Shown: positions 107 to 17,585 of the stretch, piece by piece | Layout: the number at the start of each line of letters is the position of its first letter | How positions within the stretch are numbered: the first letter of the stretch is position 1 | NCBI GenBank assembly: GCA_013378385.1 | Contig: JACAFS010000017.1 | Coordinates: forward strand, 1 to 19,047 | Source: Nitrososphaerota archaeon | GTDB lineage: Archaea; Thermoproteota; Nitrososphaeria; Nitrososphaerales; UBA57 | Direction: 5' to 3' | DNA: 19,047 bases | Program-made: the position numbers and the translations under genes | The notes under the pieces: generated by a model | What the model was told of the DNA's origin: nothing | Database searches by the model: none | Seen by the model: the letters and a program-made list of their open reading frames with translations, nothing else

Positions 107-1414
107 TTATTTTAGATCCCATTCTGCATTGATTTCTTTAACTACACCAGCGGCTATGGTTGTACCCATATCTCTTAGTGCGAATCGTCCCATTTGTGGG
201 TATTCAGTAAATGTCTCAAGACATAATGGTCTTAATGGTTGAATCTTTACAATTGCAGCATCTCCAGTTTTTAGCGCTTTAGGTTTTTCTTCTAAAACAC
301 CTCCAGTTCGTGCATCGAGTTTAGAAACTAATTCTGTTATAGTTGCAGCAGCTTGTGAAGTATGCGCATGTATAACAGGGGTATAGCCAGGGGCTATAGC
401 AGTAGGATGATGTACAACAATGATCTGTGCAGTAAATTCTTTAACAACTTTAGGTGGGTCATCAATCGGACCAATTACATCACCACGACGAATGTCCTTT
501 TTATCAACGCCACGAAGGTTGAATCCAATATTATCACCTGCAGAGGCTTGTTGCATCTCAACATGATGAGATTCAATAGATTTTACTTCAGCAGTTGCGT
601 TACTAGGCATGATAATGACCTTTTCTCCTACTTTGAATGTGCCAGTTTCGACTCTTCCGACTGGAACAGTTCCAACACCAGTAATAGAATAGACATCCTG
701 AAGTGGAAGTCTCAATGGTTTATCAACAGGGGGCGCTTCTACTTCGAAATCATCAAATGCTTGGTAAATAGTTTTACCGTCATACCAGTCAAGATTATCG
801 CCCTTATTGATGAGGTTATCGCCCTTCCATCCTGAAACAGGGATAATAGGAACCTTTGAGAGATCCCAACCAACGCCTTTTAATAATTTTTCAACTTCAA
901 CCTTTACTTCTTCATATCTTTCCTTTTTATAACCGACTTCGTTGGCATCCATTTTATTAACGGCAACAATCATTTGTTTTACGCCTAAAGTTTTGAGTAA
1001 GAAACAGTGTTCTCTAGATTGTCCGCCAGGTGCAATAGCAATTTCTGTTTCTCCGGGTTTACCAGAAACACAAAGAACAGCGGCATCTGCTTCAGAAGCG
1101 CCAGTAATCATGTTTTTAATAAAATCTCTGTGTCCAGGTGCATCAATAAGAGTGAAATCAAATTTTGGAGTTTCAAATTTCTTGAATGCTAAGTCAATAG
1201 TAACACCACGTTCTCGTTCGTCTTTCAGATTATCCATAACCCATGCGTACTTGAATGTATCACCTTTACCTGTTTTTTCAGATTCTTCTGCAAATTTGTC
1301 AATAGTTCGTTCATCAATGACTTTGAGGTCAACAAGAAGGTGACCAATTATAGTAGATTTACCTTGGTCTACGTGACCTGCTACAATTAAATTAAGATGG
1401 GGTTTGTCTGCCAA
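107..1414 (-). CDS. tuf: Translation elongation factor EF-1alpha (aEF-1A)
   Basis: 435 aa. GTPase motifs GHVDQGKS (G1), DAPGH (G3) and NKMD (G4) are present, and the protein has archaeal EF-1alpha layout over its full length. The N-terminus MADKPHLNLIV is encoded from a TTG codon at 1412-1414, with no in-frame ATG upstream. Confidence 0.97.
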   Translation of the reverse strand: MADKPHLNLIVAGHVDQGKSTIIGHLLVDLKVIDERTIDKFAEESEKTGKGDTFKYAWVMDNLKDERERGVTIDLAFKKFETPKFDFTLIDAPGHRDFIKNMITGASEADAAVLCVSGKPGETEIAIAPGGQSREHCFLLKTLGVKQMIVAVNKMDANEVGYKKERYEEVKVEVEKLLKGVGWDLSKVPIIPVSGWKGDNLINKGDNLDWYDGKTIYQAFDDFEVEAPPVDKPLRLPLQDVYSITGVGTVPVGRVETGTFKVGEKVIIMPSNATAEVKSIESHHVEMQQASAGDNIGFNLRGVDKKDIRRGDVIGPIDDPPKVVKEFTAQIIVVHHPTAIAPGYTPVIHAHTSQAAATITELVSKLDARTGGVLEEKPKALKTGDAAIVKIQPLRPLCLETFTEYPQMGRFALRDMGTTIAAGVVKEINAEWDLK

Positions 1415-1442
1415 TATTAATACCTAATGATTCAGTGATATC

Positions 1443-1461
1443 TTTTATATATATATATTTT
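1443..1461 (-). promoter_or_regulatory. TATA-box region upstream of EF-1alpha
   Basis: The minus strand reads AAAATATATATATATAAAAG and ends about 29 nt before the TTG start. This fits archaeal TATA geometry with a short leader. Confidence 0.4.
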
Positions 1462-1517
1462 CTAATTCGAATAGATTTATAGAAAGTGAATAATTTTTTC
1501 AAAATCAAATTATAGTT

Positions 1518-1525
1518 AATAAAAA
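1518..1525 (-). terminator. Oligo-T tract immediately after the tRNA 3' CCA
   Basis: The minus strand reads ...GGGACCA-TTTTTATT. Oligo-T is the typical archaeal termination signal. Confidence 0.4.
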
Positions 1526-1542
1526 TGGTCCCGCGGGTCGGA

Positions 1543-1563
1543 CTTTCATGGATTTTTATCCAA
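1543..1563 (-). other. tRNA intron 4 (21 nt, T-loop, position 59/60)
   Basis: Central helix UUCA/UGAA has four Watson-Crick pairs, with bulges AAU and AGU and inner 5-bp hairpin UGGAU-AAAA-AUCCA. Cleavage joins UUCAAA to U-CCGAC. Confidence 0.78.
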
Positions 1564-1569
1564 TTTGAA

Positions 1570-1588
1570 TTCGTCGAGCATAAGCCCT
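1570..1588 (-). other. tRNA intron 3 (19 nt, T-arm, position 53/54)
   Basis: Central helix CGUC/GACG has four Watson-Crick pairs, with bulges GGA and AAU and inner helix GGG/CUC closing a 6-nt loop. Cleavage joins T-stem GUCGG directly to UUCAAA. Confidence 0.78.
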
Positions 1589-1604
1589 CCGACGACAGTC
1601 CGGT

Positions 1605-1649
1605 TCCTGTGTTGCTTGGCAAACTGTTCGGATAAGCCAAGGCTTAACC
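1605..1649 (-). other. tRNA intron 2 (45 nt, canonical 37/38 position)
   Basis: Textbook hBHBh' motif. The anticodon stem is followed by central helix CUGU/ACAG, 3-nt bulges AGG and GAA, and inner helix GUU/AAC leading into a 7-bp intron hairpin. Cutting after the second bulge nucleotide gives loop CU-GUA-GA. Confidence 0.88.
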
Positions 1650-1664
1650 CTACAGCCGGAAGCT

Positions 1665-1677
1665 TTTGGCAATATTT
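1665..1677 (-). other. tRNA intron 1 (13 nt, D-arm, position about 22/23)
   Basis: Intron sequence AAAUAUUGCCAAA. Central helix UGGU/GCCA has one G.U pair and is flanked by 3-nt AGA and AAA. There is no inner helix (bulge-helix-loop type). A one-nt boundary shift is equally compatible with the mature sequence. Confidence 0.6.
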
Positions 1678-1742
1678 CTACCAAGCTGAGCTACCGCGGG
1701 CCTGCGGAAAATCATAAGATAATACCGCGGGTCGCGAGACCG

Positions 1743-1750
1743 AAATAATA
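1743..1750 (-). promoter_or_regulatory. Possible TATA element for the tRNA-Tyr transcript
   Basis: The minus strand reads CTCTATTATTTCGG about 45 nt upstream of tRNA position 1, which would give a leader of roughly 20 nt. This is only an AT-rich motif match. Confidence 0.2.
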
Positions 1751-1793
1751 GAGTACAGAAAAGAATAAAAAACTACCGCAGCGCTACATAATT

Positions 1794-2377: not shown

Positions 2378-2887
2378 TTGTTTAAAATGGGCAAAGTATC
2401 TAGAACTATAATGATGGAAGCACCTGTAGAAGATGTTTTCATGTACTATGCAAGACCAGAGCATGTAGCAGGTCATTTTCCAAAAGAGTCAAAAATGAAA
2501 GTTATTCCTATCAAGATTACAGAAGGATGGGGAGTTGGAACGGTAATGCGAATCATAGGTGAATTTGGTGGTAGAACAATGCAATGGGACAGTATAACAT
2601 GTCAAGTAACTAAGAATAAGAAAATTGTGTCAAAAGCATTAAATGGGCCATTCAAAAAGAATGTAATTACAGTAAACTTTGAGGAAATAAATGATACAAC
2701 TAAGGTAACATTTGAAGCAGATTACATACTTCCAAATTTCATAATTGGAATAATTATCGATAGAATGCATGTAAGAAAGCAAGTCATTAACGGAATGGAT
2801 TCAAGTTTACAGGAAGTAAAGAAATCAGTAGAAGAAAAACACAAAGAAACTGTTAAAGAAGAAATAACAGTAGAATCAAAGAACTAA
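2378..2887 (+). CDS. SRPBCC/START-fold protein (polyketide cyclase-dehydrase-like)
   Basis: The N-terminal pattern SRTIMMEAPVEDVFMYYARPEHVAGHFP and the size are typical of this superfamily. The track start at 2378 is TTG. An ATG at 2387 (MGKVS...) is an equally plausible start. Confidence 0.7.
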   Translation: MFKMGKVSRTIMMEAPVEDVFMYYARPEHVAGHFPKESKMKVIPIKITEGWGVGTVMRIIGEFGGRTMQWDSITCQVTKNKKIVSKALNGPFKKNVITVNFEEINDTTKVTFEADYILPNFIIGIIIDRMHVRKQVINGMDSSLQEVKKSVEEKHKETVKEEITVESKN

Positions 2888-3804
2888 AAAATAGGAAACC
2901 TAAATAAAACATCCAAGATCAATGCAATAAATATTATCGCAAGATATGGACTAGAAAATTTGAATGCAGTAAGAGCGATTTTTTTGTCGGCAGGGTTCTT
3001 AAGTAATTTTACATTACTATATAATAATAAAATTCCGAATATAACAGAAATTACAAGATAAACATAACCAAATCCCAATAAGACAAAGACCAATGAAAAT
3101 GGAATTAACAAAAGAGTATTGATTATAGTGTAACGTGCAGCTTTTACTTTACCTACAACAACAGGTAGCATAGGAATACCTGCTTCTGTATAATCGTCGT
3201 CTTTCAATAATGCCAATGCCCAGAAATGTGAAGGAGTCCAGATAAAAACTAAAGATCCCATAAGAATAGCAATAAGGTTAAGTTCTCCAGTGATAGCAGT
3301 CCACCCTGCAAATGCAGCGGCGCTACCTGCAAAGCCTCCAATTACAATATTCCAAGTAGTCCTTCGTTTTAGCCATATCGTGTAAATAAATACATAGAAG
3401 AATGAACCTAATAGGATCATTCCTGTAGTTAATAAATTAAGAAAGACAGTAGAAACAATTGCTGCGATTGTAATCATAATAATTCCATAAGCCAGAGTAA
3501 TATTAGGTGAAAGCTGACCAGTTGCACTAGCGCGTTTTTTAGTTCTTTCCATCTTAATGTCAATATCACGATCTACATAACAATTCAATGCAGCAGAGCC
3601 GGCAGAAGAAAGAGTGCCTGCAATAAGAAGTCCAGCCACTATAGTGAAACTAATAGGATTAGTAACGTAATTTGGGTCAAGATATGCAATTAATAATGCA
3701 GAAATAGCCACAAAATCAAGAAGGTAGATTATTGAAGGTTTAGAGACTTCTATAAGATGAGATACTAGATTTCTATAATTTATTGGAATTGAATTAGATG
3801 ACAT
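2884..3804 (-). CDS. ctaB: Protoheme IX farnesyltransferase (heme O synthase)
   Basis: 306 aa, polytopic. It has the UbiA-family Asp-rich motif NCYVDRDIDIKMERTKKR and is the last gene of the oxidase operon. Confidence 0.9.
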   Translation of the reverse strand: MSSNSIPINYRNLVSHLIEVSKPSIIYLLDFVAISALLIAYLDPNYVTNPISFTIVAGLLIAGTLSSAGSAALNCYVDRDIDIKMERTKKRASATGQLSPNITLAYGIIMITIAAIVSTVFLNLLTTGMILLGSFFYVFIYTIWLKRRTTWNIVIGGFAGSAAAFAGWTAITGELNLIAILMGSLVFIWTPSHFWALALLKDDDYTEAGIPMLPVVVGKVKAARYTIINTLLLIPFSLVFVLLGFGYVYLVISVIFGILLLYSNVKLLKNPADKKIALTAFKFSSPYLAIIFIALILDVLFRFPIF

Positions 3805-3814
3805 TCGGGGTATT

Positions 3815-3985
3815 TCACTCTGATGGAATTACAAAGAATGATTGCCATAAAAGATAAGCAATTCCAAGAACTAAGAAAACAACAGATAATGTAACAATTA
3901 ATTTTTTAGTTCCTTGGTCATTGTGCTGTTCAGAACCTGACAACATTACAAATATGTTAAGAACAAGATTGATTATGTCAAACAT
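3815..3985 (-). CDS. Unlisted small membrane ORF (56 aa) inside the oxidase operon
   Basis: Translated by hand as MFDIINLVLNIFVMLSGSEQHNDQGTKKLIVTLSVVFLVLGIAYLLWQSFFVIPSE. It has an ATG start and TGA stop, shares the operon strand, and ends 10 nt before the ctaB start. It contains two hydrophobic segments and is absent from the supplied ORF track. Confidence 0.4.
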   Translation of the reverse strand: MFDIINLVLNIFVMLSGSEQHNDQGTKKLIVTLSVVFLVLGIAYLLWQSFFVIPSE

Positions 3986-4023
3986 ATGATTTTTACCTAT
4001 TTTCCAATTATTAAATCCTTTGA

Positions 4024-4698
4024 TTATTTAGGTGTAGAAGTGAAGAAAGTTTTTAGAATCATAAGTATACATATTAAATCAATTCCGACCATCATAAATA
4101 TCATCCAAAATCCAGATGTCATTTGTACGGAGAGAGGGTATGTTTGATAAATCTGAGAATTTCCACTGGCTAGAAAGAAACCTAAAACCCCCATTGTTTT
4201 ATCAATAGATAATATGAAGATGAGTGACTGAATACGTGAAATCATCTTAAAGCTAGAATAGAGGAATATTCCAGAGAGGATTATACTAAAGTGCATTGTC
4301 ATATGTGAATTGAGATCAACAACGGCAGTATCAAAATTAGAGGGAATATGCCAGTAAAATAATGATATGAGAAATAGTAATCCCGTAATCATACCAAATG
4401 GATTAAATCGATTATTAAGTACAAGATACTTAGAATAATATTGTAAGATTTGTCTTTGGTAATTTGATGAACTATATTTGAATGATTTAATTACAGAATC
4501 AGTACCTGATGCAAAAAGAAAACCAGTTGAAAGATATAATATATGTTCAATCATGATATGAAAAAACAGATTCTGTACTTCGTAACGTTCTAATGTTGGA
4601 GAGGTTAATAATAAGATGAATGCATTTCCAAGAATAATTTGCAGCAGGCCATCTTGAAATAGATTTTTTGGATTATTTCGGTTTTTAAGATATTGCAT
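4024..4698 (-). CDS. His-rich polytopic membrane protein; candidate oxidase assembly factor (possibly CtaG/Caa3_CtaG-like)
   Basis: 224 aa with about 6 TM segments. Paired-His motifs are HIMIEH and HMTMH, plus WHIP. It sits between ctaA and ctaB with short gaps. The function is inferred from context only. Confidence 0.5.
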   Translation of the reverse strand: MQYLKNRNNPKNLFQDGLLQIILGNAFILLLTSPTLERYEVQNLFFHIMIEHILYLSTGFLFASGTDSVIKSFKYSSSNYQRQILQYYSKYLVLNNRFNPFGMITGLLFLISLFYWHIPSNFDTAVVDLNSHMTMHFSIILSGIFLYSSFKMISRIQSLIFILSIDKTMGVLGFFLASGNSQIYQTYPLSVQMTSGFWMIFMMVGIDLICILMILKTFFTSTPK

Positions 4699-4711
4699 AT
4701 TTCATTATCAA

Positions 4712-5137
4712 TTATGTTCGCAATGATAATAAAGCAGTAATTACAGAGAAACCAAACAAGGCGGTAGATACAGCTAAGTGAATAGTGACGATTGCAGGGT
4801 CAAGAATTGAAGTCACTGTAAGCATTCCAATATAGGCCTGGATGGTTACTAAAACGAGAGTTATTCCAGATGTAGTAACAAGATATGTAGTATCTCGATA
4901 TGAACGATAAGCGACTATAAATGTACCAAGTATAAGAAAACCAACAACCATTGCAAGATAACGATGAGTCATTTCAATCAATACAGAAGTAGTAAGATTA
5001 GGAAGAAATTCTCCGAAACATAAAGGCCAATCAGGGCAAGCCATACCAGAACCACTCTGTGTAGTAATTCCGCCAACAACAATTAAGATGTAGATACCTA
5101 TAGCAGATGACACTGAAAGAGTCTTTAATGGATTCAT
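4712..5137 (-). CDS. ctaA: Heme A synthase, compact 4-TM archaeal form (COX15/CtaA family)
   Basis: 141 aa. It has the GSGMACPDWPLCFGE Cys-pair motif and conserved His in EMTHRY and VTIHLA. It starts 3 nt after the subunit I stop. Confidence 0.82.
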   Translation of the reverse strand: MNPLKTLSVSSAIGIYILIVVGGITTQSGSGMACPDWPLCFGEFLPNLTTSVLIEMTHRYLAMVVGFLILGTFIVAYRSYRDTTYLVTTSGITLVLVTIQAYIGMLTVTSILDPAIVTIHLAVSTALFGFSVITALLSLRT

Positions 5138-5140
5138 CGA

Positions 5141-6676
5141 CTACTGATCAGGCCATTCTTTCAAACCGTAGTCGGCGAGTTTCCATGGATCTTCTTGATT
5201 TTCAACAAGAGGGCCTCGATACCAACTATTCAAGATATTATACAAGAATACAAGTGCGCCAAATGCAATTAAAATAGCGCCAAATGATGCAGCCACATTA
5301 AGATTGAAGAATTCTGGAAGATATTGATAATATCTTCTAGGTGCTCCAGCGAGTCCCAAGAATAACATGGCAGTGAATAACGTATACATTCCTACAGTAG
5401 TCAAAGCAAAATGAAGTTGTCCTAGTGTTTCACTGTATTTTCGACCAGTCATATATGGGAAGTAATAATAAATTCCTGCAAAAACAGCTTGAGCTGAGAC
5501 TCCAAACAGAACATAATGCAGATGACTTACTACATAATATGTATCTTGAAGTTGATAGTCTAACGGAATGTTAGCAAGGAAAACGCCTTCAACTCCCTGA
5601 ATAATAAAACTAAGAATAAAGCTTAGACTGAAAAGCATAGGAGTGCTGAGCTTAAGCTTGCCGCCATACAGTGTAGCAACCCAGTTAAAGATTTTTACGC
5701 CGGACGGTATAGCAATAGCCATAGTCATAAACATAAACGGTACACGTGCAGTAATAGACAATCCACTAGTCCACATATGATGTGCCCATACACCAAAACC
5801 TAAGAATCCAATCAATGCAGTAGAAACTGCAATAGAGCTATAGCCAAATATTCTTTGTCTTGACATACTTGGTAAGATTTGCGATATTAGACCCATTCCT
5901 GGTAAAACCATGATATATACCGCAGGATGTGAATAGAACCAGAATAGATGTTGCCACATTATAGGATCTCCGCCAAGAGCAGGGTTAAAGAATCCTGTTC
6001 CAAGATTTCTATCCAATAGCAATAAAGTCAAAGCCATGGCGAGAACTGGTGTAGCAAGAACTTGTAAGAAAGAAGTAGTCAGCTGTGTCCAGACCAGCAA
6101 AGGCATGTTTCTATAGGTAACATTAGGAGCCCTCATCTTCATGATTGTAACTATAAAATTAAGACCTCCAATAATCGACGATGTTCCTAACAAGTGAAGA
6201 CCAAGGATAGTCATATCCATACCCCAACCAGCTGCATAAACAGACAATGGAGCATAAGCAGTCCATCCTACATTAGGCATACCTGCCCAAATAAGAAAAC
6301 CTGCAGGAGGCAGCATCCAGAAACCTAATGCGTTAAGTTTTGGGAAATACATATCTTTAGCTCCAATATATTTTGGAACGAGATAGTTTCCGAAACCTGC
6401 CCAAGCAGGAATTACAAACAGAAATATCATACTAACGCCATGAATTGTAAATAAACTCGAATATGCCTCAGGAGCTATTGAACCTCCACGAGTTAGACCA
6501 TATCTAACAAGTAATGAAGCAAAACCTCCCATAAAGAAAAAGAACATAGAGAACACCAAATACATTATGCCAATGTCGGTGTGATGAGTAGTAGTTAGAA
6601 TAGTCTTCCAACTAGAATAGAAATTCTTATGTTCTTGTTGTGCAGTTGCTTCTTTCTTAGCTTCTTTAATTTCCAT
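5141..6676 (-). CDS. ctaD: Heme-copper oxidase subunit I, type A2
   Basis: 511 aa. Ligand and channel motifs are FTIHG, WFYSHPAVYIMVLPG (the YSHPxV variant in place of the helix VI Glu), AHHMW, IPSGVKIF (K-channel Lys) and VVSHLHYVL. Confidence 0.96.
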   Translation of the reverse strand: MEIKEAKKEATAQQEHKNFYSSWKTILTTTHHTDIGIMYLVFSMFFFFMGGFASLLVRYGLTRGGSIAPEAYSSLFTIHGVSMIFLFVIPAWAGFGNYLVPKYIGAKDMYFPKLNALGFWMLPPAGFLIWAGMPNVGWTAYAPLSVYAAGWGMDMTILGLHLLGTSSIIGGLNFIVTIMKMRAPNVTYRNMPLLVWTQLTTSFLQVLATPVLAMALTLLLLDRNLGTGFFNPALGGDPIMWQHLFWFYSHPAVYIMVLPGMGLISQILPSMSRQRIFGYSSIAVSTALIGFLGFGVWAHHMWTSGLSITARVPFMFMTMAIAIPSGVKIFNWVATLYGGKLKLSTPMLFSLSFILSFIIQGVEGVFLANIPLDYQLQDTYYVVSHLHYVLFGVSAQAVFAGIYYYFPYMTGRKYSETLGQLHFALTTVGMYTLFTAMLFLGLAGAPRRYYQYLPEFFNLNVAASFGAILIAFGALVFLYNILNSWYRGPLVENQEDPWKLADYGLKEWPDQ

Positions 6677-6682
6677 CTTTCA

Positions 6683-7108
6683 TCATTCCTCAATAATTAA
6701 CTTAGTTCTCATACCACCATGATAAGCGCCGCAGAATTCTGCGCATTGAATCCAATACTCGCCAGGAGTTTCAGCACTAATTATCTGAATTCTAGTTTTA
6801 CCAGGTATTATATCAACTTTAAATCCCATTTCTCGAACGTAGAAACTGTGAATAACATCTTCACTTTCTAGTTCCAGTCTAACTATATCACCTTGTTTAA
6901 TTTTTAGTTCGCCAGATTCTGTTCCATCAGGATAAATGAATTTCCAATACCATTGACCTGATTCAACTTTGACAATATAATCAGGATCTCCATAATAATC
7001 AGGGTTATCTAATGCGTCTAAAACAGGAAGAGCTAATGCGCCCAATCCAAATAACAGAACAGTAGCTCCTATAATTGTTATCCATTCTAATTTTTCTAAT
7101 GTATTCAT
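6683..7108 (-). CDS. ctaC: Heme-copper oxidase subunit II (CuA cupredoxin domain, single N-terminal TM)
   Basis: 141 aa. The CuA ligand set is complete: H in VIHSFYV, and CAEFCGAYHGGM. Confidence 0.92.
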   Translation of the reverse strand: MNTLEKLEWITIIGATVLLFGLGALALPVLDALDNPDYYGDPDYIVKVESGQWYWKFIYPDGTESGELKIKQGDIVRLELESEDVIHSFYVREMGFKVDIIPGKTRIQIISAETPGEYWIQCAEFCGAYHGGMRTKLIIEE

Positions 7109-7110
7109 GA

Positions 7111-7368
7111 TTATTCCAGTCCTGCAGGTTGTGAACGATCCCAGAATTTAAGTATCAAATAAAAGAATGTTCCCACAAACAAAGCAGAAACGAACATTCC
7201 AGCAACATAAACTATATCATAATATTGTTTAATCATAGCAGCACGTGCGTCGATTGGATCAGGATACCAAGACAGTATAAAACCTCCACCTATAATAAAT
7301 AATACAATAAATGTTACAATAACAGTCAATCCCCAAACGATTCTATCAAAAGTTGAAAGTATTCCCAA
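7111..7368 (-). CDS. Small 2-TM membrane protein at the head of the oxidase operon (possible small subunit)
   Basis: 85 aa. It has a TTG start and ends 2 nt before the subunit II start. I recognise no motif. Confidence 0.55.
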   Translation of the reverse strand: MGILSTFDRIVWGLTVIVTFIVLFIIGGGFILSWYPDPIDARAAMIKQYYDIVYVAGMFVSALFVGTFFYLILKFWDRSQPAGLE

Positions 7369-7437
7369 TGTTTAGCCAAATTTTAGTGCATCGATTTAAT
7401 ATATTAGGATTTCTACTCCTTCCAGATTTGGTAAGAA

Positions 7438-7752
7438 TTATTTAAACTTATTTAACATCAATGGGTCGGGTTCAATTGCTTTTTTTCTAAGTCGTTTTTC
7501 ATACAATTTCGGTCCATAGTATATATTCAGATATGCAAGAATCTGCATAGTAGCGTGAAAAACAAGCATAGTAGTAAAGGAATAAGATAGTATGACTAGC
7601 ATTACTATTCCGGTAACAAATGCAATAACATGAATTATTACGGCAAGAATCATAGAGAATTTTCTGTATTTAGAGACTTTGTCAGAGATTTGTTGTCTTC
7701 TTAATTCTTCCAATTCAGCAAGATATGATAATTGATTCAATAATATTAACAA
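7438..7752 (-). CDS. Hypothetical membrane protein (104 aa from a TTG start; 72 aa if the internal ATG is used)
   Basis: Charged N-terminal helix followed by two TM segments. It is on the same strand as, and upstream of, the oxidase operon. Confidence 0.4.
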   Translation of the reverse strand: MLILLNQLSYLAELEELRRQQISDKVSKYRKFSMILAVIIHVIAFVTGIVMLVILSYSFTTMLVFHATMQILAYLNIYYGPKLYEKRLRKKAIEPDPLMLNKFK

Positions 7753-7828
7753 AGTATAGAATTTAATTAAATGTTATTAGGAAAAAAAAGTTAAATGTGG
7801 TTATCGATATAAAATTTTTGACTTAAGG

Positions 7829-8695
7829 ATGGGTAATAATGAAGAAAAGCCAGAATTTGAACATCATGTAGATACGAGTGAAATTCATTCTTATATGCCT
7901 GCTTTGATAGGTTTAGGAGCTGGAGCGTTTGTTGCAGCTGGAGTAATCTTCATGCTAAAAGGATTCTCCTTACAATTAGGAGCAGGATTAGTTGGGTTAT
8001 TTGTTTTATTGATATTCATATTCCTTGGAGGAGAAATACCAAGGTGGCCAAAGATTACAAAGGATTCCGAACACATGGTAAAGGCAGGAGGCACTCCTGG
8101 TGAGTTTCATGAAATAGGAGATGTTGGTTTTCCAACTGCTTTGTTTCTTTTGTCGGAAATAGCATTCTTCGGAGGAGCGTTTATAGCTTATTTCTATCTA
8201 AGGTCAGCTTATGCAGTATGGCCTCCAGAAGGACTACATCATCTTGATGTTGCAATTCCAAGTATTCAAACTGCATTATTAATTGTCAGCAGCGTTATGA
8301 TTGAATGGGCTACTGCAGGTGTAAAGAAAGGAAATCAAACAGCAGTAAAATATGGTTTTCTCGGAGCAGTAATTCTTGGTTTAGGATTTGCAGTTATACA
8401 GATGGGTTATGAATGGCCAGAACTACTTAGAACAGGTGAACTAACACCACAAGATGGATTATTTGGAGCTTCGTTCTTTGTACTTACAGGCATTCATGGA
8501 GTGCACGTAATAGCAGGAGTTATTGCAAACGCAGTTGTAACAGTAAAGGCATTTAAAAATCAATTTGATGAGAAGAATCACGGATTTTTAGAAGCTGCGG
8601 GAACCTATTGGCACTTTGTACATATTGTTTGGTTATTCTTGTTTGCATTTTTGTGGCAAGATGGTTTATCATATTTCCAGGCGGCGGTAGCATAA
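7829..8695 (+). CDS. ctaE: Heme-copper oxidase subunit III (7-TM form)
   Basis: 288 aa. Family motifs are FFVLTGIHGVHVIAG and YWHFVHIVW. It is divergent from the subunit II/I operon. Confidence 0.9.
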   Translation: MGNNEEKPEFEHHVDTSEIHSYMPALIGLGAGAFVAAGVIFMLKGFSLQLGAGLVGLFVLLIFIFLGGEIPRWPKITKDSEHMVKAGGTPGEFHEIGDVGFPTALFLLSEIAFFGGAFIAYFYLRSAYAVWPPEGLHHLDVAIPSIQTALLIVSSVMIEWATAGVKKGNQTAVKYGFLGAVILGLGFAVIQMGYEWPELLRTGELTPQDGLFGASFFVLTGIHGVHVIAGVIANAVVTVKAFKNQFDEKNHGFLEAAGTYWHFVHIVWLFLFAFLWQDGLSYFQAAVA

Positions 8696-11750: not shown

Positions 11751-13067
11751 ATGAATGTGGCTGTTTTAACGATATCCGGGTTAAGAGGCATAATGGGAGA
11801 AGATTTGTTCGGTAATGATATATTAGACACGATTTATAATTTTGTCAGTTCAAAGGAGATAAAAACTTGTGCAATTGGGAGGGATACGAGGTCAACGTCA
11901 GAAATGCTTCATCAGGTAGTTCTTTCATGTCTATTAGCAGAAGGGTGCAACGTAGAGGATTTAGGAGTAACGTCAACGCCATCAGTATTTCGTCATGTTA
12001 AAAAGAATAATTTAGACGGAGGAGTATGTATAACGTCTTCACACAATCCAAAAGAATGGAACGGTTTAAAATTAATCATTAGGCCAGGAAGAATAATTAA
12101 ACCAGATGAATTGAACAACAAAAACACAAAGAATTATTCATTCACTGGGACAAAGAAAGAACTAGAAACATGTTATTACAATGATTTAATTGAATTCTTT
12201 AAAGATGAGAGATTCCATGGGTTAAAAATAGGTATGGATTTAGGAGGAGGGGCAGCGTGCATATTTGTGAAAGATATTTTTATAAAACTAGGATGTCGGG
12301 TTTATACAATAAATGACTCTCCAGGAACGTTTAATCGAATAATTAATCCAACTGAGGATCCATTGGAATCGCTTTCAAAACTAATAGTAGAAAATGAGTG
12401 TAATGTAGGATTTGCATTTGATGCGGATGTTGACAGATTAGTAATACTAAATGAGAGAGGTGAGAAGATAGCTCCTGATTTTTCTCTATTAGCAGGCATA
12501 AAATATATTGAACAGAGGTTCAAATTGGAAAAAGCGGCAATTAGCATAGACAGTTCCTTATCCATAATCAATTATCTAAAAAAAATCAATTGTGAAATAC
12601 TTACAACGCCAGTAGGAGAAATTAGCGTATTGGAAAAGATTCAAAGTGGGAAATGTCAAGTAGGAGGAGAAGGCAGCAGTGGAGGATTTATTTATCCGGA
12701 ATTTAATTTATGTAGAGATGGGATTCTATTAGCTTTAATGGTTTCGAGGTTAGTGGAAAATTATGGAGATGTAGATAGTATATTCTCGGACATTGAGAAA
12801 TTTAAACAAAAAAGGATAAAGATAAAGACGAATCCAGAAAATTTCAATGTAATAAAAGAACATTTTTTAAAATTAGATAATGTAACATTCATTGATGGAA
12901 TAAAGATCACACCTAATGATGATAAATGGGTATTAATTAGGCCATCAAATACAGAGAAATGCATAAGATTGTCAGTTGAGGCAAATAATGAGAAAGATGC
13001 ACAGGATTTAATTGATGAATATAAGAATCAGATAGAGAATTTACTCAGTGACTCTACAAGTCATTAA
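11751..13067 (+). CDS. Phosphohexomutase superfamily enzyme (PGM/PMM-like, divergent motifs)
   Basis: 438 aa. Motifs are active-site TSSHNP, metal loop FDADVDR and sugar loop GGEGSSG. Confidence 0.85.
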   Translation: MNVAVLTISGLRGIMGEDLFGNDILDTIYNFVSSKEIKTCAIGRDTRSTSEMLHQVVLSCLLAEGCNVEDLGVTSTPSVFRHVKKNNLDGGVCITSSHNPKEWNGLKLIIRPGRIIKPDELNNKNTKNYSFTGTKKELETCYYNDLIEFFKDERFHGLKIGMDLGGGAACIFVKDIFIKLGCRVYTINDSPGTFNRIINPTEDPLESLSKLIVENECNVGFAFDADVDRLVILNERGEKIAPDFSLLAGIKYIEQRFKLEKAAISIDSSLSIINYLKKINCEILTTPVGEISVLEKIQSGKCQVGGEGSSGGFIYPEFNLCRDGILLALMVSRLVENYGDVDSIFSDIEKFKQKRIKIKTNPENFNVIKEHFLKLDNVTFIDGIKITPNDDKWVLIRPSNTEKCIRLSVEANNEKDAQDLIDEYKNQIENLLSDSTSH

Positions 13068-14415
13068 TTAAATCATTAATCAATTTTGAACAGTTCTCAG
13101 TTATTGTATCCAAATGAGTTTGACTATCAGATTCACTAAATAACCTTATAATAGGTTCAGTTCCACTTGGACGAATTAAAGACCAACTGTTATCATTCCA
13201 AAGAATTTTAAGGCCGTCAGTTTGATCAATTGTTTCAGATAATGAAGATGCAATATTAGAAATAATGGAGTCACGAGAATCAATTGGACAGGAGAATTTA
13301 GTCTTGTGCTGATAAAATTGTGGCAAAATAGAAAGATGTTGAGAGAGTTTTTTATCTGAAAAAGACAACAATTCAAGCATAAGTGCAGTACCCATTGCGC
13401 CGTCTCTTACGGCAACATGAGGAGAATAAAGGCATCCGCCATTTTCTTCAAAACCGAATTTAGAATCTAATTCTATCATTTTATGTGAAACGTCTACACT
13501 ACCTACTTTAGTACGATACACTTCAACGTCGTATTTTGATGCAATTTTTTCAATTATTTGTGAAGTAGCAATAGTGGTAACAATAGGAGATTTAATGCCT
13601 TTTTGAATAAGATGTTCGCCTACAAGAGTTCCTGATTTATCACCCCAAAAAACAGTACCAGTTTCATCGCAGAATATACTTCTATCACCATCTCCGTCAT
13701 ATCCAACGCCAATATCTGCGTTGTTTTCAACAACAGATTTAGATAGAAAATCTAATGTTTTAGGAGTAGGTTCGCCTCCACGTCCAGAGAAATTTCCATC
13801 AATATGATTATTTAGAGTGATTACTTCGCATCCAAGGTCCTCAGCAATAAATGGGGCACTTAAGGCCTGAGTGCCATTTCCAGAATCGATAACAATTTTT
13901 AGTTTACGCTTTTTGATAGATGAAGAATCGACATTTTTTATTACAGAATTAATATAATCAGTGACTACAGAACTATTAGATGTCATATTTCCTACTCCTT
14001 GCCAGTCTTTTCTTGAATATTTTTTCTGGAAATAAATATCCTCGATTATGTCTTCGTCGGATCTTGAAACTTCAATTCCAGTAGAAGAAATTACTTTGAT
14101 TCCGTTATATTCAGCAGGATTATGAGATGCAGTAATCATTACGCCGCCGTCAAAAGAATTCTTTGTAATTAATTGAATGCCAGGAGTTGGGACCATATTG
14201 GCAAAAACAACGTTCTTTCCAGATTCCATCAATCCTGCAGAGATAGCACGAGAAATAGAAGGGCTAGAATGACGGCCGTCATATCCAACTATTATATTAT
14301 TGCCTTCAAAAAAGGAACCAATACTCAGACCCATATTTACAATAAAATCAAGACCGTACTCCTTACCAGGAATGAATCTAATGCCATTTGTTCCAAAAAG
14401 TTTCTTATTAGTCAA
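13054..14415 (-). CDS. Phosphohexomutase (archaeal phosphoglucosamine/phosphomanno-mutase type)
   Basis: 453 aa. Motifs are FGTNGIR, TASHNP, YDGDGDR and GFEENGG. The start is TTG; the only upstream ATG is followed immediately by TAA. Confidence 0.88.
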   Translation of the reverse strand: MTNKKLFGTNGIRFIPGKEYGLDFIVNMGLSIGSFFEGNNIIVGYDGRHSSPSISRAISAGLMESGKNVVFANMVPTPGIQLITKNSFDGGVMITASHNPAEYNGIKVISSTGIEVSRSDEDIIEDIYFQKKYSRKDWQGVGNMTSNSSVVTDYINSVIKNVDSSSIKKRKLKIVIDSGNGTQALSAPFIAEDLGCEVITLNNHIDGNFSGRGGEPTPKTLDFLSKSVVENNADIGVGYDGDGDRSIFCDETGTVFWGDKSGTLVGEHLIQKGIKSPIVTTIATSQIIEKIASKYDVEVYRTKVGSVDVSHKMIELDSKFGFEENGGCLYSPHVAVRDGAMGTALMLELLSFSDKKLSQHLSILPQFYQHKTKFSCPIDSRDSIISNIASSLSETIDQTDGLKILWNDNSWSLIRPSGTEPIIRLFSESDSQTHLDTITENCSKLINDLINDL

Positions 14416-14496: not shown

Positions 14497-15252
14497 ATGA
14501 ACATTGCAGTGTGTATAAAACAAGTACCAGATACAGCATCACAACTAAAAATTGCAGAAGATAATAAAACAATCGAGGATAATGGAATAAAATATGAAAT
14601 CAATCCATTTGATGAATATGCGCTAGAAGAAGCTCTGAGATTGAAGGATAAAGACAATACTATAAATATTACAGTAATTTCGCTTGGGCCAGAACGTGTG
14701 AAACAATCTTTAACGAAGACATTAGCAATGGGGGCCGATGAAGCAATACATCTTCAAACAGATAATTCAATTAATGATTGTATGGTCATAGCTAACACAA
14801 TCACAAATGAGATAAAGAAGAAACAATATGATCTGATATTATTCGGGAAGAAATCAGTTGATCAAGATAATAATCAAGTAGGGATGATAATTGGGGAGAT
14901 TAATGGCATACCGTGTATTTCAAATTGTTCAGAATTTGCCATAGAAGACAATAAGATTGTAGCAAATAGAGAAGTAGAAGGTTCGGTAGAGGTATTTGAA
15001 GGAGAATTTCCAGTAATTATAACACATGAAAAAGGTAAAAACGAATTACGATATCCTTCATTAAAAGATTTGATGGCAGCCAAGAAGAAATCAATCAATA
15101 CAATAGATGTTGATGTTAATGACAATAAAAATCCAGAGTTAATTAGATTAGAATATCCAAAGAAGAGAGAAGAAGGAATAATCATTGGGGAAGATAAATC
15201 AGCAGTTTCGGAGTTAATAAGAATACTTAGAGAAGAGAGAAAATTAATCTAG
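14497..15252 (+). CDS. etfB: Electron transfer flavoprotein beta subunit
   Basis: 251 aa. The N-terminus MNIAVCIKQVPDT is typical of EtfB/FixA, and the gene is followed directly by the alpha subunit. Confidence 0.92.
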   Translation: MNIAVCIKQVPDTASQLKIAEDNKTIEDNGIKYEINPFDEYALEEALRLKDKDNTINITVISLGPERVKQSLTKTLAMGADEAIHLQTDNSINDCMVIANTITNEIKKKQYDLILFGKKSVDQDNNQVGMIIGEINGIPCISNCSEFAIEDNKIVANREVEGSVEVFEGEFPVIITHEKGKNELRYPSLKDLMAAKKKSINTIDVDVNDNKNPELIRLEYPKKREEGIIIGEDKSAVSELIRILREERKLI

Positions 15253-15261
15253 GTGATATTT

Positions 15262-16233
15262 ATGTCATGTATACTAACTGTAATTGAATCTAAGAATAAA
15301 GAAATTAAGAATTCGGCATTAGAATTACTTTCAGAGGCTAGAAAGATATCATCAAAAAGGAATCTAGACAATAAGGTAATTATCATAGGAGAATATGAGA
15401 AAAATAATTCTACGCAGATTAATGAATTTGGGATAAATGCATTGTTAACTGGATCTACAGACAAAATAAGTAAATATTCGCCTGAATTATACAGAGATTC
15501 ATTACTGCATACAATAAATGAATTGAAGCCAGAAATAATATTATTTTCGGGTAGTGCAATTGGAAAAGATTTAGCGCCAAGAATAGCAGCCAATATAGGT
15601 TATAATTTAGTAACTGAATGTATAGATATTTCAATAATAGAAGAGGGATATGAGATAAAACGTCCAATTTTTGCTGGAAAGATTATTCAGACATTAAGAT
15701 TCAATAAAACCCCGATAGTAGTTTCATTAAAGTCAAATTCATTTACAATTGAGAAAATTGAAGAAAATGAGATTTCGATAAAACAAATTGACGTCAATGT
15801 ATCAGAAGATAAGAAATTGCCAATATTAAGAGAAATAATACAGCCGCAAAAAGAGGTATTGGATGTATCAGAAGCTTCAACAATAGTATCTGGAGGAAGA
15901 GGAATGAAGGAACCAGAGAATTTTAAATTAATTGAAGAATTAGCAGAGATTCTCAATGCAGCAGTTGGCGCATCAAGAGCAGTAGTTGATGCAGGTTGGA
16001 GACCGCATTCAGAACAAGTGGGGCAAACAGGCAAAATTGTTTCGCCAAATTTATACATTGCATTCGGAATATCAGGAGCTATACAACATCAAGTTGGGAT
16101 GATAAATTCAAAATGTATAGTAGCCGTGAATAAAGATAAAAATGCACCAATTTTCAAATTTGCAGACTATGGAATAGTAGGTGATTTGTTCGAGATAATT
16201 CCAGAATTAATTGCTGAATTAAAAAATAAATAA
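15262..16233 (+). CDS. etfA: Electron transfer flavoprotein alpha subunit
   Basis: C-terminal FAD block PNLYIAFGISGAIQHQVGM. I place the start at the ATG at 15262, preceded by GGTGAT, rather than the track's GTG at 15253. Confidence 0.9.
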   Translation: MSCILTVIESKNKEIKNSALELLSEARKISSKRNLDNKVIIIGEYEKNNSTQINEFGINALLTGSTDKISKYSPELYRDSLLHTINELKPEIILFSGSAIGKDLAPRIAANIGYNLVTECIDISIIEEGYEIKRPIFAGKIIQTLRFNKTPIVVSLKSNSFTIEKIEENEISIKQIDVNVSEDKKLPILREIIQPQKEVLDVSEASTIVSGGRGMKEPENFKLIEELAEILNAAVGASRAVVDAGWRPHSEQVGQTGKIVSPNLYIAFGISGAIQHQVGMINSKCIVAVNKDKNAPIFKFADYGIVGDLFEIIPELIAELKNK

Positions 16234-16234
16234 A

Positions 16235-17521: not shown

Positions 17522-17585
17522 TACTTCAAAACTCGAATTTGGCAAATATTAAGATTGTCTTAGTCTGATAAATTTTTGACATGGA

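What the first reader, a model, noticed from the sequence alone, without database searches (positions are those of the whole stretch)
1526..1700. tRNA-Tyr(GUA) gene apparently split by four BHB introns (22/23, 37/38, 53/54, 59/60)
The minus strand from 1700 to 1526 starts as a perfect tRNA 5' end (CCCGCGG-TA-GCTC-AGCTTGGTAG) and ends as a perfect 3' end (CCGAC-CCGCGGG-A-CCA). It is 175 nt long. A canonical 74-nt cloverleaf is recovered only by removing four segments. The cloverleaf has the C1:G72/A73 Tyr identity pair, anticodon GUA, a 5-nt variable loop and T loop UUCAAAU. Each removed segment sits in its own bulge-helix-bulge context: a 4-bp central helix with 3-nt bulges on opposite strands. 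Cutting after the second bulge nucleotide yields exactly the mature junction in all four cases. The central helices are CUGU/ACAG (intron 2), CGUC/GACG (intron 3), UUCA/UGAA (intron 4) and UGGU/GCCA (intron 1). Intron 1 is the weakest because it is of the bulge-helix-loop type. Four independent structural coincidences of this kind are unlikely by chance. As far as I recall, the published maximum is three introns per archaeal tRNA gene (Thermoproteales), so a four-intron gene would be at or beyond the known extreme. It also explains why the six-frame track shows a spurious 82-aa ORF here.
Basis: partly seen in the sequence, partly recalled or inferred. Interest (0 to 1): 0.85.

Follow-up and report, generated by a model that had tools for sequence, protein, structure and literature searches.

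The report
Four-intron tRNA-Tyr gene plus retired fifth intron
A marine non-ammonia-oxidising thaumarchaeon encodes its tyrosine tRNA in five pieces separated by four short protein-spliced introns, with the remains of a fifth intron stranded in the leader; close relatives still use all five, more than I found reported for any archaeal tRNA gene.

Summary
On the minus strand, 1700..1526 is a 175-nt tRNA-Tyr(GUA) gene. Removing four segments (13, 45, 19 and 21 nt; positions 22/23, 37/38, 53/54, 59/60) gives a 77-nt product that ARAGORN calls tRNA-Tyr. Each junction lies in a bulge-helix-bulge (BHB) register.

The decisive evidence is comparative. In 11 distinct orthologues, 0 of 77 exon columns vary against 39 of 103 intron columns. 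Intron helices change by compensatory substitutions. More distant thaumarchaeal lineages lack individual introns exactly at the predicted boundaries.

There is a new element. The 44-nt leader (1744..1701) holds a second copy of CCCGCGGTA followed by a fifth BHB. In sister lineages this is a real intron at 9/10, so those genes have five introns. In the window's clade a 10-nt insertion (CCCGCGGTAG, which equals nt 1-10 of the spliced RNA) restored a contiguous 5' end and left the old exon and intron in the leader. The central helix of that relic still covaries.

Caveat: four-intron archaeal tRNA genes are already listed for Asgard archaea in a 2024 supplement, so four equals the published record rather than exceeding it. 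I found no report of five. There is no RNA-level evidence.

The parts
1526..1700 (-). tRNA-Tyr(GUA) gene, 175 nt, with genomically encoded CCA
   Evidence: The spliced product is recognised by ARAGORN as tRNA-Tyr(gta).
1678..1700 (-). Exon 1: acceptor 5' strand, U8 A9, D stem 5' strand, D loop and G22 (CCCGCGGTAGCTCAGCTTGGTAG)
   Evidence: Invariant in 9 of 9 window-clade sequences. The same mature sequence is found in all lineages.
1665..1677 (-). Intron 1 (13 nt, AAATATTGCCAAA) at 22/23. Bulge-helix-loop type with central helix UGGU/GCCA.
   Evidence: It is absent at exactly this point in L104, L089 and L081. In L109 it is 17 nt with a 3-bp inner helix.
1650..1664 (-). Exon 2: AGC, U26, anticodon stem 5' strand and CUGUAG (anticodon GUA, G37)
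1605..1649 (-). Intron 2 (45 nt) at the canonical 37/38 position. Strict hBHBh': the anticodon stem is the outer helix, CUGU/ACAG is the central helix, and there is a 3-bp inner helix.
   Evidence: It is present in every lineage examined.
1589..1604 (-). Exon 3: A38, anticodon stem 3' strand, variable loop CUGUC and T stem 5' strand GUCGG
1570..1588 (-). Intron 3 (19 nt) at 53/54. HBh' type with central helix CGUC/GACG and inner helix GGGC/GCUC.
   Evidence: Inner-helix pairs covary: GC/AU, GU/AU/GC and CG/UA. It is absent in L081, L092 and L095.
1564..1569 (-). Exon 4: T-loop nucleotides 54-59 (TTCAAA), a 6-nt exon
   Evidence: It is contiguous with the T stem in L081, L092 and L095.
1543..1563 (-). 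Intron 4 (21 nt) at 59/60. HBh' type with central helix UUCA/UGAA and a 5-bp inner helix. It becomes a strict hBHBh' once intron 3 is removed and the T stem can form.
   Evidence: Inner pair 4 occurs as AU, CG, UA and GC.
1526..1542 (-). Exon 5: U60, T stem 3' strand, acceptor 3' strand, A73 and CCA
1723..1731 (-). Pseudo-exon: a second copy of CCCGCGGTA (tRNA nt 1-9) in the 5' leader. It is homologous to the functional exon 1 of the five-intron relatives.
   Evidence: Alignments A1 and A2. It has diverged to CCCACGG in L002 and CCAGTGG in L003, showing it is no longer used as the acceptor strand in this clade.
1701..1722 (-). Retired intron at 9/10 (21 nt, TTATCTTATGATTTTCCGCAG) plus G1701. 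The BHB central helix is GCGG (1728..1725) with CCGC (1707..1704). The bulges are UAU and AGG.
   Evidence: It is homologous to the true 9/10 intron of L004, L083, L097-L102, L104 and L109. The central helix is paired in 8 of 8 variants, with GC to AU and CG to UA double changes. The strict inner-helix register is lost in the window clade.
1732..1741 (-). Leader GGTCTCGCG(A), complementary over 9 nt to the tRNA 3' end CGCGGGACC
   Evidence: It pairs with the 3' end in the minimum-free-energy folds of the window, L004, L104 and L109. It is seen only in lineages that have the 9/10 intron.
1764..1772 (-). Conserved TATA-like box (TTTTTTATT) about 37-40 nt upstream of the pseudo-exon. This is the inferred promoter, so the transcript should include the pseudo-exon and the retired intron.
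   Evidence: It is an invariant block within an otherwise variable spacer. A T/A-rich box sits at the same distance from exon 1 in L004, L104 and L109. This is an inference; no transcription start data exist.
1518..1525 (-). T-rich run directly after CCA, the likely transcription stop
   Evidence: Read directly from the sequence. Inference.

Best explanation
This is the functional tRNA-Tyr(GUA) gene of a heterotrophic marine Nitrososphaerota (thaumarchaeal) lineage. It lies upstream of the EF-1alpha gene on the same strand. The proposed pathway is as follows.

- Transcription (inferred): it starts at a conserved TATA-like box about 40 nt upstream of a leader copy of the 5' exon. The precursor of about 220 nt carries five BHB-type elements.
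- Four true introns: they lie at 22/23, 37/38, 53/54 and 59/60.
- Cleavage (inferred from family knowledge): the archaeal splicing endonuclease EndA, which is the broad-specificity alpha2beta2 type in this phylum according to the literature, cuts after the second nucleotide of each 3-nt bulge.
- Ligation (inferred from family knowledge): an RtcB-type ligase joins the exons, giving a 74-nt cloverleaf plus encoded CCA.
- Order (inferred): the central helices of introns 3 and 4 use T-stem and T-loop nucleotides, so the T arm can form only after splicing. Removing intron 3 turns the motif of intron 4 into a strict hBHBh'.
- Fifth element: it is a retired intron. The ancestor had a real 9/10 intron, still present in four- or five-intron genes of three related lineages.
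- Origin of the window's form: in the window's clade a 10-nt insertion, CCCGCGGTAG, rebuilt a contiguous 5' end downstream of that intron. This sequence equals nt 1-10 of the spliced RNA.
- Consequence: the old exon 1 and the intron now sit in the 5' leader. Their central helix is still kept by compensatory substitutions.
- Likely role of the relic (inferred): the inherited leader pairs with the tRNA 3' end. It and the pseudo-exon must be cut off by EndA, or at least sequestered, so that the true acceptor stem can form.
For: - Spliced product: it is a canonical tRNA-Tyr according to ARAGORN.
- BHB register: it is exact at all four junctions and improbable by shuffling, with a combined probability of about 2e-13.
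- Independent assemblies: 11 distinct orthologous sequences come from separate genome and metagenome assemblies.
- Exon conservation: 0/77 exon columns vary against 39/103 intron columns, p = 8e-12.
- Proposed precursor helices: 97.4% of cells are paired, against 31-44% when the partners are slid.
- Compensatory changes: they occur in the inner helices of introns 3 and 4 and in the leader central helix.
- Intron presence/absence across lineages, all giving the same mature sequence:
  - 30/31 + 37/38 + 59/60 in L081
  - 30/31 + 37/38 + 53/54 + 59/60 in L089
  - 9/10 + 37/38 + 53/54 + 59/60 in L104
  - 9/10 + 22/23 + 37/38 + 53/54 + 59/60 in L109, L004, L083 and L097-L102
- Polarity: the 9/10 intron is present in lineages whose EF-1alpha is 71%, 73% and 81-84% identical to the window's. 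The window state is therefore the derived one.
- No intronless copy: an exon-anchored pattern that allowed 0-30 nt at 53/54 and 59/60 found no uninterrupted gene among the 16 matching metagenome contigs.
- Folding: minimum-free-energy folds pair the leader with the 3' end and form the 9/10 BHB in all four lineages tested.
- Literature: Thaumarchaeota have alpha2beta2 EndA and many noncanonical introns (PMC4090602; PMC8450103).
Against: - There is no RNA-level evidence (junction reads, circular introns, mature tRNA) for any of the introns.
- Intron 1 has only a 4-bp central helix with one G-U pair and no real flanking helices in this clade, and none of its pairs vary. A competing 7-bp hairpin and a D-loop:intron-2 pairing appear in the folds.
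- In L001 the central helix of intron 3 has a C-A mismatch.
- The endonuclease type, the ligase, RNase P and the number of tRNA-Tyr genes in this genome could not be examined.
- For the leader element, strict BHB geometry is lost in the window clade after a 2-nt deletion. The 5' site then lies in an internal loop.
- Covariation in the leader helix rests on only two independent double substitutions.
- The predicted 3' cut would leave an extra G before C1, so it cannot by itself make the mature 5' end.
Confidence: 0.85

Rival explanations
1. The locus is a decaying tRNA-Tyr pseudogene riddled with insertions, and a different, uninterrupted gene supplies tRNA-Tyr.
For: Standard detectors find nothing in the unspliced DNA. 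The rest of the genome could not be inspected.
Against: All 77 exon positions are invariant across lineages whose EF-1alpha has diverged to 81-84%. The same mature sequence is kept at 71-73%. Introns diverge but keep their helices through compensatory changes. The promoter-like box and the T-run are conserved. The exon-anchored metagenome scan found no intronless copy with this exon sequence.
Confidence: 0.03
2. Only three segments are true introns. The 13-nt insert at 22/23 is not spliced and is kept as an enlarged D loop, or the gene is non-functional at that step.
For: Intron 1 is the weakest motif: bulge-helix-loop type, 4-bp helix with one G-U, no covariation. Alternative hairpins compete with it.
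Against: Without removal the D stem is reduced to 3 bp with a loop of about 23 nt, and the G18-G19 nucleotides are tied up. Lineages L104, L089 and L081 have an uninterrupted GCTCAGCTTGGTAGAGC at exactly this point. In L109 the insert at the same position is 17 nt with a 3-bp inner helix, which is a proper HBh' motif. Its interior varies (13, 14 or 17 nt) while GCCA and both junctions are fixed. Bulge-helix-loop introns are known substrates of broad-specificity endonucleases (PMC12397907).
Confidence: 0.05
3. The leader element (pseudo-exon plus old 9/10 intron) is only a fossil. It is not cut by the splicing endonuclease, and RNase P alone removes the whole 44-nt leader. Any conservation reflects recent origin, or selection for a plain hairpin that keeps the pseudo-exon away from the acceptor 3' strand.
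For: The inner helix has lost its strict register and a 2-nt deletion enlarges the 5' bulge. The predicted 3' cut leaves G-1, so RNase P or an equivalent would be needed anyway. Splicing would give a tandem CCCGCGGUAG repeat with no obvious benefit. The pseudo-exon is diverging in L002 and L003.
Against: The 4-bp central helix is paired in all 8 variants, with two independent double substitutions (GC to AU in L002, CG to UA in L003). The folds keep the motif next to the acceptor stem. Hairpin-only selection would, however, explain the covariation equally well.
Confidence: 0.4

Closest known systems
Multiple-intron tRNA genes of Thermoproteales (Pyrobaculum, Thermofilum, Caldivirga); up to three BHB introns per gene
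   Same: [quoted passage not shown] The motifs are relaxed BHB/HBh'/BHL forms. Some introns must be removed before the next motif can form (PMC8450103; PMC4033280).
   Different: The phylum differs: this is a mesophilic marine Nitrososphaerota with about 34% G+C. There are four introns in the gene and five in sister lineages. One exon is only 6 nt. An additional BHB element sits in the 5' leader.
Thaumarchaeal noncanonical tRNA introns (separate BHB covariance model in tRNAscan-SE 2.0; 107 noncanonical introns in the genomes analysed)
   Same: Same phylum, and the same kind of short noncanonical introns with their own consensus. The three-intron tRNA-Tyr form (30/31, 37/38, 59/60), found here on GC-richer contigs (L081, and by eye L092 and L095), fits the published 'up to three'.
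   Different: The window lineage has a different and larger set (22/23, 53/54 and the 9/10 relic). I could not check whether any database already lists these genes.
Four-intron tRNA genes of Asgard archaea (Freyarchaeia tRNA-Arg(TCT), tRNA-Ile2(CAT), tRNA-Leu(GAG); Atabeyarchaeia tRNA-Trp(CCA)); Supplementary Data 4 of PMC11291895
   Same: Four introns in one archaeal tRNA gene. The intron count of the window gene is therefore not unprecedented.
   Different: The phylum and isotype differ. Those genes are only tabulated, with no comparative or structural analysis. That table provides for at most four introns, whereas relatives of the window gene have five.
Split and permuted tRNA genes (Nanoarchaeum, Caldivirga, Cyanidioschyzon), in which leader and trailer sequences pair to build a BHB
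   Same: A BHB that involves sequence outside the mature tRNA, and a leader that pairs with another part of the precursor to hold the pieces together (PMC4090602).
   Different: Here all exons are colinear on one strand in one transcription unit, so the gene is neither split nor permuted. The leader BHB derives from a former internal intron.

Membership tests
Archaeal tRNA gene with BHB (EndA-spliced) introns | Removing the proposed introns yields a canonical cloverleaf accepted by a tRNA detector | tested here: met
   ARAGORN calls the 77-nt spliced product tRNA-Tyr(gta). The same holds for the spliced L004, L104 and L109 genes.
Archaeal tRNA gene with BHB (EndA-spliced) introns | Each exon-intron boundary lies in a 3-nt bulge, the two bulges are separated by a 4-bp helix (strict hBHBh' or relaxed HBh'/hBH/BHL), and the cut falls after the second bulge nucleotide | tested here: met
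   The central helix is 4/4 at all four junctions. Intron 2 is strict, introns 3 and 4 are HBh', and intron 1 is BHL. Shuffle probabilities range from 0.006 to 0.00006.
Archaeal tRNA gene with BHB (EndA-spliced) introns | Exons are under purifying selection while introns drift but keep their helices | tested here: met
   0/77 against 39/103 variable columns. Compensatory pairs occur in the inner helices of introns 3 and 4. Introns 1 and 2 show no informative covariation.
Archaeal tRNA gene with BHB (EndA-spliced) introns | The host encodes a splicing endonuclease able to cut relaxed motifs (alpha2beta2 or epsilon2) | not testable with these tools
   No EndA gene lies in the 19-kb window. The literature assigns alpha2beta2 to Thaumarchaeota (PMC4090602).
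Archaeal tRNA gene with BHB (EndA-spliced) introns | Spliced RNA, splicing intermediates or circular introns are observed | not testable with these tools
   No transcript data were available.
tRNA-Tyr of the archaeal/eukaryotic type | Anticodon GUA, C1:G72 first pair, A73 discriminator | tested here: met
   Read directly from the spliced sequence and the ARAGORN fold.
Split or permuted tRNA gene | tRNA pieces are encoded at separate loci or in rearranged order | tested here: not met
   All five exons are colinear within 175 nt on one strand.
Group I or group II self-splicing intron in a tRNA gene | An intron of hundreds of nucleotides with a catalytic RNA fold | tested here: not met
   The introns are 13-45 nt, and Rfam gives no match even at E <= 10.

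The most novel reading that the evidence does not exclude
The locus records an intron being retired without being deleted. A 10-nt sequence identical to nt 1-10 of the spliced tRNA was written back into the DNA at the 3' splice site. Its last base, G10, is not adjacent to exon 1 in the ancestral DNA, which points to an RNA- or cDNA-templated event. The former exon 1 and 9/10 intron now serve as an EndA-processed 5' leader. Cutting at that BHB would detach a leader that otherwise pairs with the tRNA 3' end over 9 bp and competes with the acceptor stem. This would be a colinear tRNA precursor whose 5' maturation depends on the splicing endonuclease, in a clade whose relatives hold the record of five introns per tRNA gene.
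Probability: 0.25. Interest if true: 0.75.

Novelty: new variant of a known kind. Interest (0 to 1): 0.6.

Why it matters
Archaeal tRNA introns are the model for how protein-spliced introns are gained, moved and lost, and for how endonuclease specificity co-evolves with its substrates.

This tRNA-Tyr locus gives a graded natural series in one orthologous gene with an identical mature sequence. The series runs from three introns, through two different sets of four, to five introns, and then to four plus a stranded intron. Individual gain and loss events can therefore be placed on a tree.

It extends heavy tRNA fragmentation, including a 6-nt exon and up to five introns, to abundant mesophilic deep-ocean archaea.

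Practically, standard annotation misses the gene, so genomes of this clade would appear to lack tRNA-Tyr. A spurious 82-aa ORF is called in its place.

The leader element offers a testable case of how an intron can be inactivated by exon duplication rather than by deletion.

Tried and rejected
- Direct detection failed.
- A relaxed BHB scan is too permissive, with about 30 hits per 290 nt. I dropped it as evidence in favour of fixed-junction shuffles and comparative data.
- The 76 ammonia-oxidiser and Nitrososphaeraceae EF-1alpha loci (L005-L080) carry no tRNA-Tyr upstream of EF-1alpha, so synteny helps only within the heterotrophic lineages.
- Loci L103, L105, L107 and L108 (EF-1alpha 73-74%) also lack the gene there. 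No DNA could be fetched for P0063.
- A small leader hairpin, GGTC/GACC, showed no covariation. I replaced it with the leader:3'-end pairing seen in the folds.
- I tested by eye whether the 31-nt unit ending in the proximal CCCGCGGTA is a tandem DNA duplicate of the preceding 31 nt. Only 9 of 22 non-exon positions match, which is inconclusive in AT-rich sequence.
- The likeness of the intron 3' end and of the leader to exon 1 cannot be used as evidence of duplication. CCGCGG is a palindrome, so complementarity forces similarity.
- The GC-rich island at the window's end (18.8-19.05 kb) is not another RNA gene. It is the coding Gly/Arg-rich tail of a DEAD-box helicase.
Full report
**What is in the window**

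The 19-kb window has 34% G+C. It encodes the following genes:
- archaeal EF-1alpha (107-1414, minus strand)
- pterin-4a-carbinolamine dehydratase
- an SRPBCC protein
- heme O synthase, CtaA and CtaG
- cytochrome oxidase subunits I, II and III
- two phosphoglucomutase-family proteins
- ETF alpha and beta, and ETF-QO

A genome scan with EF-1alpha gave hits of 92-94% identity to marine Nitrososphaerales/Thaumarchaeota MAGs (L001-L003). It gave 82% to MAG SAT139 (L004) and only about 70% to ammonia oxidisers. SAT139 is treated as a heterotrophic marine Nitrososphaerota genome in PMC13374868. The only non-coding GC-rich island in the window is 1525-1764.

**Checking the observation**

ARAGORN and Rfam find no tRNA in the raw DNA.

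I removed pre-tRNA nt 24-36, 52-96, 113-131 and 138-158. This leaves a 77-nt sequence that ARAGORN folds as a canonical tRNA-Tyr(gta). It has C1:G72, A73, a 9-nt D loop, a 5-nt variable loop, T loop UUCAAAU and an encoded CCA.

I coded the BHB rule explicitly: two 3-nt bulges on opposite strands, a 4-bp helix between them, and a cut after the second bulge nucleotide. Every central helix scores 4/4.
- Intron 2 (37/38) is a strict hBHBh', with the anticodon stem as its outer helix.
- Introns 3 (53/54) and 4 (59/60) have 4- and 5-bp inner helices and no outer helix.
- Intron 1 (22/23) is bulge-helix-loop.

The central helices of introns 3 and 4 use nucleotides 48-51 and 54-57. The T arm therefore cannot fold until they are spliced out. 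After intron 3 is removed, the T stem becomes the outer helix of intron 4. The second-to-last exon is only 6 nt (TTCAAA).

**Is it more than chance?**

A relaxed BHB definition alone is not informative, because it gives about 30 hits in 290 nt. At the fixed junctions the picture is different. I shuffled each intron interior and asked how often the result had a 4/4 central helix with an inner helix at least as long as observed. The probabilities were 0.0057, 0.0016, 0.0003 and 0.00006, with a product of about 2e-13.

**Comparative evidence**

The gene sits upstream of EF-1alpha in related genomes. An exon-anchored pattern scan of metagenomes recovered 16 more loci. The pattern was exon 38-53, TTCAAA and TCCGAC, with 0-30 nt allowed at 53/54 and 59/60. 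Look-ups of EF-1alpha homologues added L097-L109.

Eleven distinct sequences of the window clade and its sister clade were aligned (A2).
- Exon versus intron variation: 0 of 77 exon columns vary against 39 of 103 intron columns (Fisher p = 8e-12).
- Proposed precursor structure: 97.4% of cells are paired, against 31-44% when the 3' partners are slid by 1-3 columns. Five pairs change on both sides.
- A splice-site-anchored table that includes more distant lineages shows the covariation in detail:
  - Intron 3 inner pairs occur as GC/AU, GU/AU/GC and CG/UA.
  - Intron 4 inner pair 4 occurs as AU, CG, UA and GC.

The introns behave as discrete presence/absence characters at exactly the predicted boundaries, and the mature sequence stays the same (TTCAAG in L109). 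L092, L093 and L095 were read by eye because they have small exon differences; L092 and L095 look like the three-intron L081 form.

| Lineage | Intron positions |
|---|---|
| L081 (GC-richer contig) | 30/31, 37/38, 59/60 |
| L089 | 30/31, 37/38, 53/54, 59/60 |
| L104 (EF-1alpha 71%; same lineage as the partial L084) | 9/10, 37/38, 53/54, 59/60 |
| L109 (EF-1alpha 73%) | 9/10, 22/23, 37/38, 53/54, 59/60 |
| Sister clade at 81-84% (L004, L083=L094, L097-L102; many independent assemblies) | 9/10, 22/23, 37/38, 53/54, 59/60 |

In L109 the 22/23 intron is 17 nt and has a 3-bp inner helix. This removes most of the doubt about the weakest intron. All spliced products are called tRNA-Tyr by ARAGORN. 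The pattern would have matched a copy with no intron at 53/54 and 59/60 and this exon sequence. None of the 16 matching contigs was such a copy.

Upstream of the gene the window reads GGTCTCGCGA-CCCGCGGTA-TTATCTTATGATTTTCCGCAG-G, and then the tRNA begins (1741..1701).

In the five-intron relatives the proximal CCCGCGGTA is absent. There the upstream copy is the real exon 1, followed by a textbook HBh' intron at 9/10. In L004 this has central helix GCGG/CCGU, bulges UAU and AGG, and inner helix GAUAU/AUAUC. In L109 the inner helix is GAUACC/GGUAUC, and in L104 it is GAU/AUC.

The 9/10 intron occurs in lineages at 71%, 73% and 81-84% EF-1alpha identity. The window's state is therefore the derived one. 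A 10-nt insertion rebuilt a contiguous 5' end immediately after the old 3' splice site.

The inserted decamer can be read as CCCGCGGTAG, which is nt 1-10 of the spliced RNA. In the ancestral DNA, exon 1 is flanked by A and T, not G. The extra G therefore fits a copy of the spliced junction better than a DNA-level copy of exon 1. This is a hint only, since one nucleotide would match by chance about one time in four.

The T/A-rich promoter-like box stays at a constant distance from the upstream copy in all lineages. I infer from this that the window's transcript still begins upstream and carries the pseudo-exon and the old intron in a 44-nt leader.

In this clade the pseudo-exon is free to diverge: CCCACGG in L002 and CCAGTGG in L003. 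Yet the 4-bp central helix stays paired in all 8 variants, through GC to AU and CG to UA double changes. The strict register of the inner helix has been lost after a 2-nt deletion.

**Leader pairing**

The 9 nt before the (pseudo-)exon, GGUC(C/U)CGCG, are complementary to the tRNA 3' end CGCGGGACC. This is seen only in lineages that have the 9/10 intron.

Minimum-free-energy folds of the window, L004, L104 and L109 precursors all pair the leader with the 3' end and form the 9/10 BHB. Forcing the true acceptor stem instead costs 2.8-4.8 kcal/mol.

I infer that in the five-intron genes this helix tethers the 9-nt exon 1 while its G4-G7 are engaged in the BHB. In the window clade the inherited leader has become a competitor of the new acceptor strand. 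That would explain why a cleavable, or at least sequestering, helix is retained. These steps are inference; nothing at the RNA level was tested.

**Comparison with what is known**

Reviews and the tRNAscan-SE 2.0 paper state a maximum of three introns per archaeal tRNA gene (PMC4033280; PMC8450103). They also note many noncanonical introns and alpha2beta2 EndA in Thaumarchaeota.

However, Supplementary Data 4 of a 2024 Asgard study lists four-intron genes: Freyarchaeia Arg-TCT, Ile2-CAT and Leu-GAG, and Atabeyarchaeia Trp-CCA (PMC11291895). The window's count of four therefore equals that record rather than exceeding it. My searches found no report of five introns, nor of a BHB intron stranded in a leader by exon duplication. 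The library is incomplete, so this absence is weak evidence.

**Verdict**

This is a real, selected tRNA-Tyr gene with four BHB-type introns, plus a fifth retired BHB in its leader. It is a variant of a known kind, not a new kind of system.

Its value lies in the orthologous series of intron states and in the intron-retirement event. The main gaps are the lack of RNA evidence and the lack of genome-wide context: the EndA type, RNase P, and whether other tRNA-Tyr copies exist.

Noticed in passing
L004 3721-3921; L083; L094; L097-L102; L109 (about 1228-1430): tRNA-Tyr genes with five BHB introns (9/10, 22/23, 37/38, 53/54, 59/60) occur in two related lineages, in many independent assemblies. This is more introns per tRNA gene than I found in any paper searched.
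   Followed up: yes
L089 83-264; L104 (about 1236-1410); L081 1485-1688: Other thaumarchaeal lineages carry the same mature tRNA-Tyr with different intron sets. L089 has 30/31, 37/38, 53/54 and 59/60. L104 has 9/10, 37/38, 53/54 and 59/60. L081 has 30/31, 37/38 and 59/60. Together they form a ready-made series for studying intron gain and loss.
   Followed up: partly
window 1665-1677 and 1605-1649 (minus strand): Introns 1 and 2 both contain TTGCCAA(A)GC, which is complementary to the D-loop sequence GCTTGGTA. Minimum-free-energy folds sometimes pair the D loop with intron 2 instead of intron 1. The meaning is unknown; it could be common origin, ordered splicing or chance.
   Followed up: no
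window 1732-1741 (minus strand); the same place in L004, L104 and L109: The leader GGTC(C/T)CGCG(A) looks like 'GGT + CCCGCG'. That is the 5' flank plus exon 1 of lineages without the 9/10 intron (L089 has GGT directly before CCCGCGG). It may be an even older copy of the 5' end. Because CCGCGG is a palindrome, however, similarity and complementarity cannot be told apart.
   Followed up: partly
window about 17650-19047 (+), running off the end: A DEAD-box RNA helicase gene (motifs GTGKT, DEAD, SAT, HRIGRTAR) has a C-terminal Gly/Arg-rich tail built from NRSGGYG-type repeats. The tail is encoded by a 21/42-nt tandem repeat at 18888-19047. This is the second GC-rich island of the window.
   Followed up: partly
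window 2884-8695: A heme-copper oxidase cluster holds heme O synthase (UbiA family), CtaG-like and half-size CtaA-like assembly proteins, and COX subunits I, II and III. This is consistent with an aerobic heterotrophic, non-ammonia-oxidising thaumarchaeon.
   Followed up: no
window 11751-13067 (+) and 13054-14415 (-): Two convergent phosphoglucomutase/phosphomannomutase paralogues overlap at their 3' ends by 14 nt. They are followed by ETF beta and alpha and an ETF-quinone oxidoreductase (14497-17545).
   Followed up: no
window 1392-1640 (-): The 82-aa ORF (TTG start) is an artefact. It starts inside intron 2 and runs through the tRNA 3' half, and orthologues carry frame-breaking 1-nt indels there.
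   Followed up: yes
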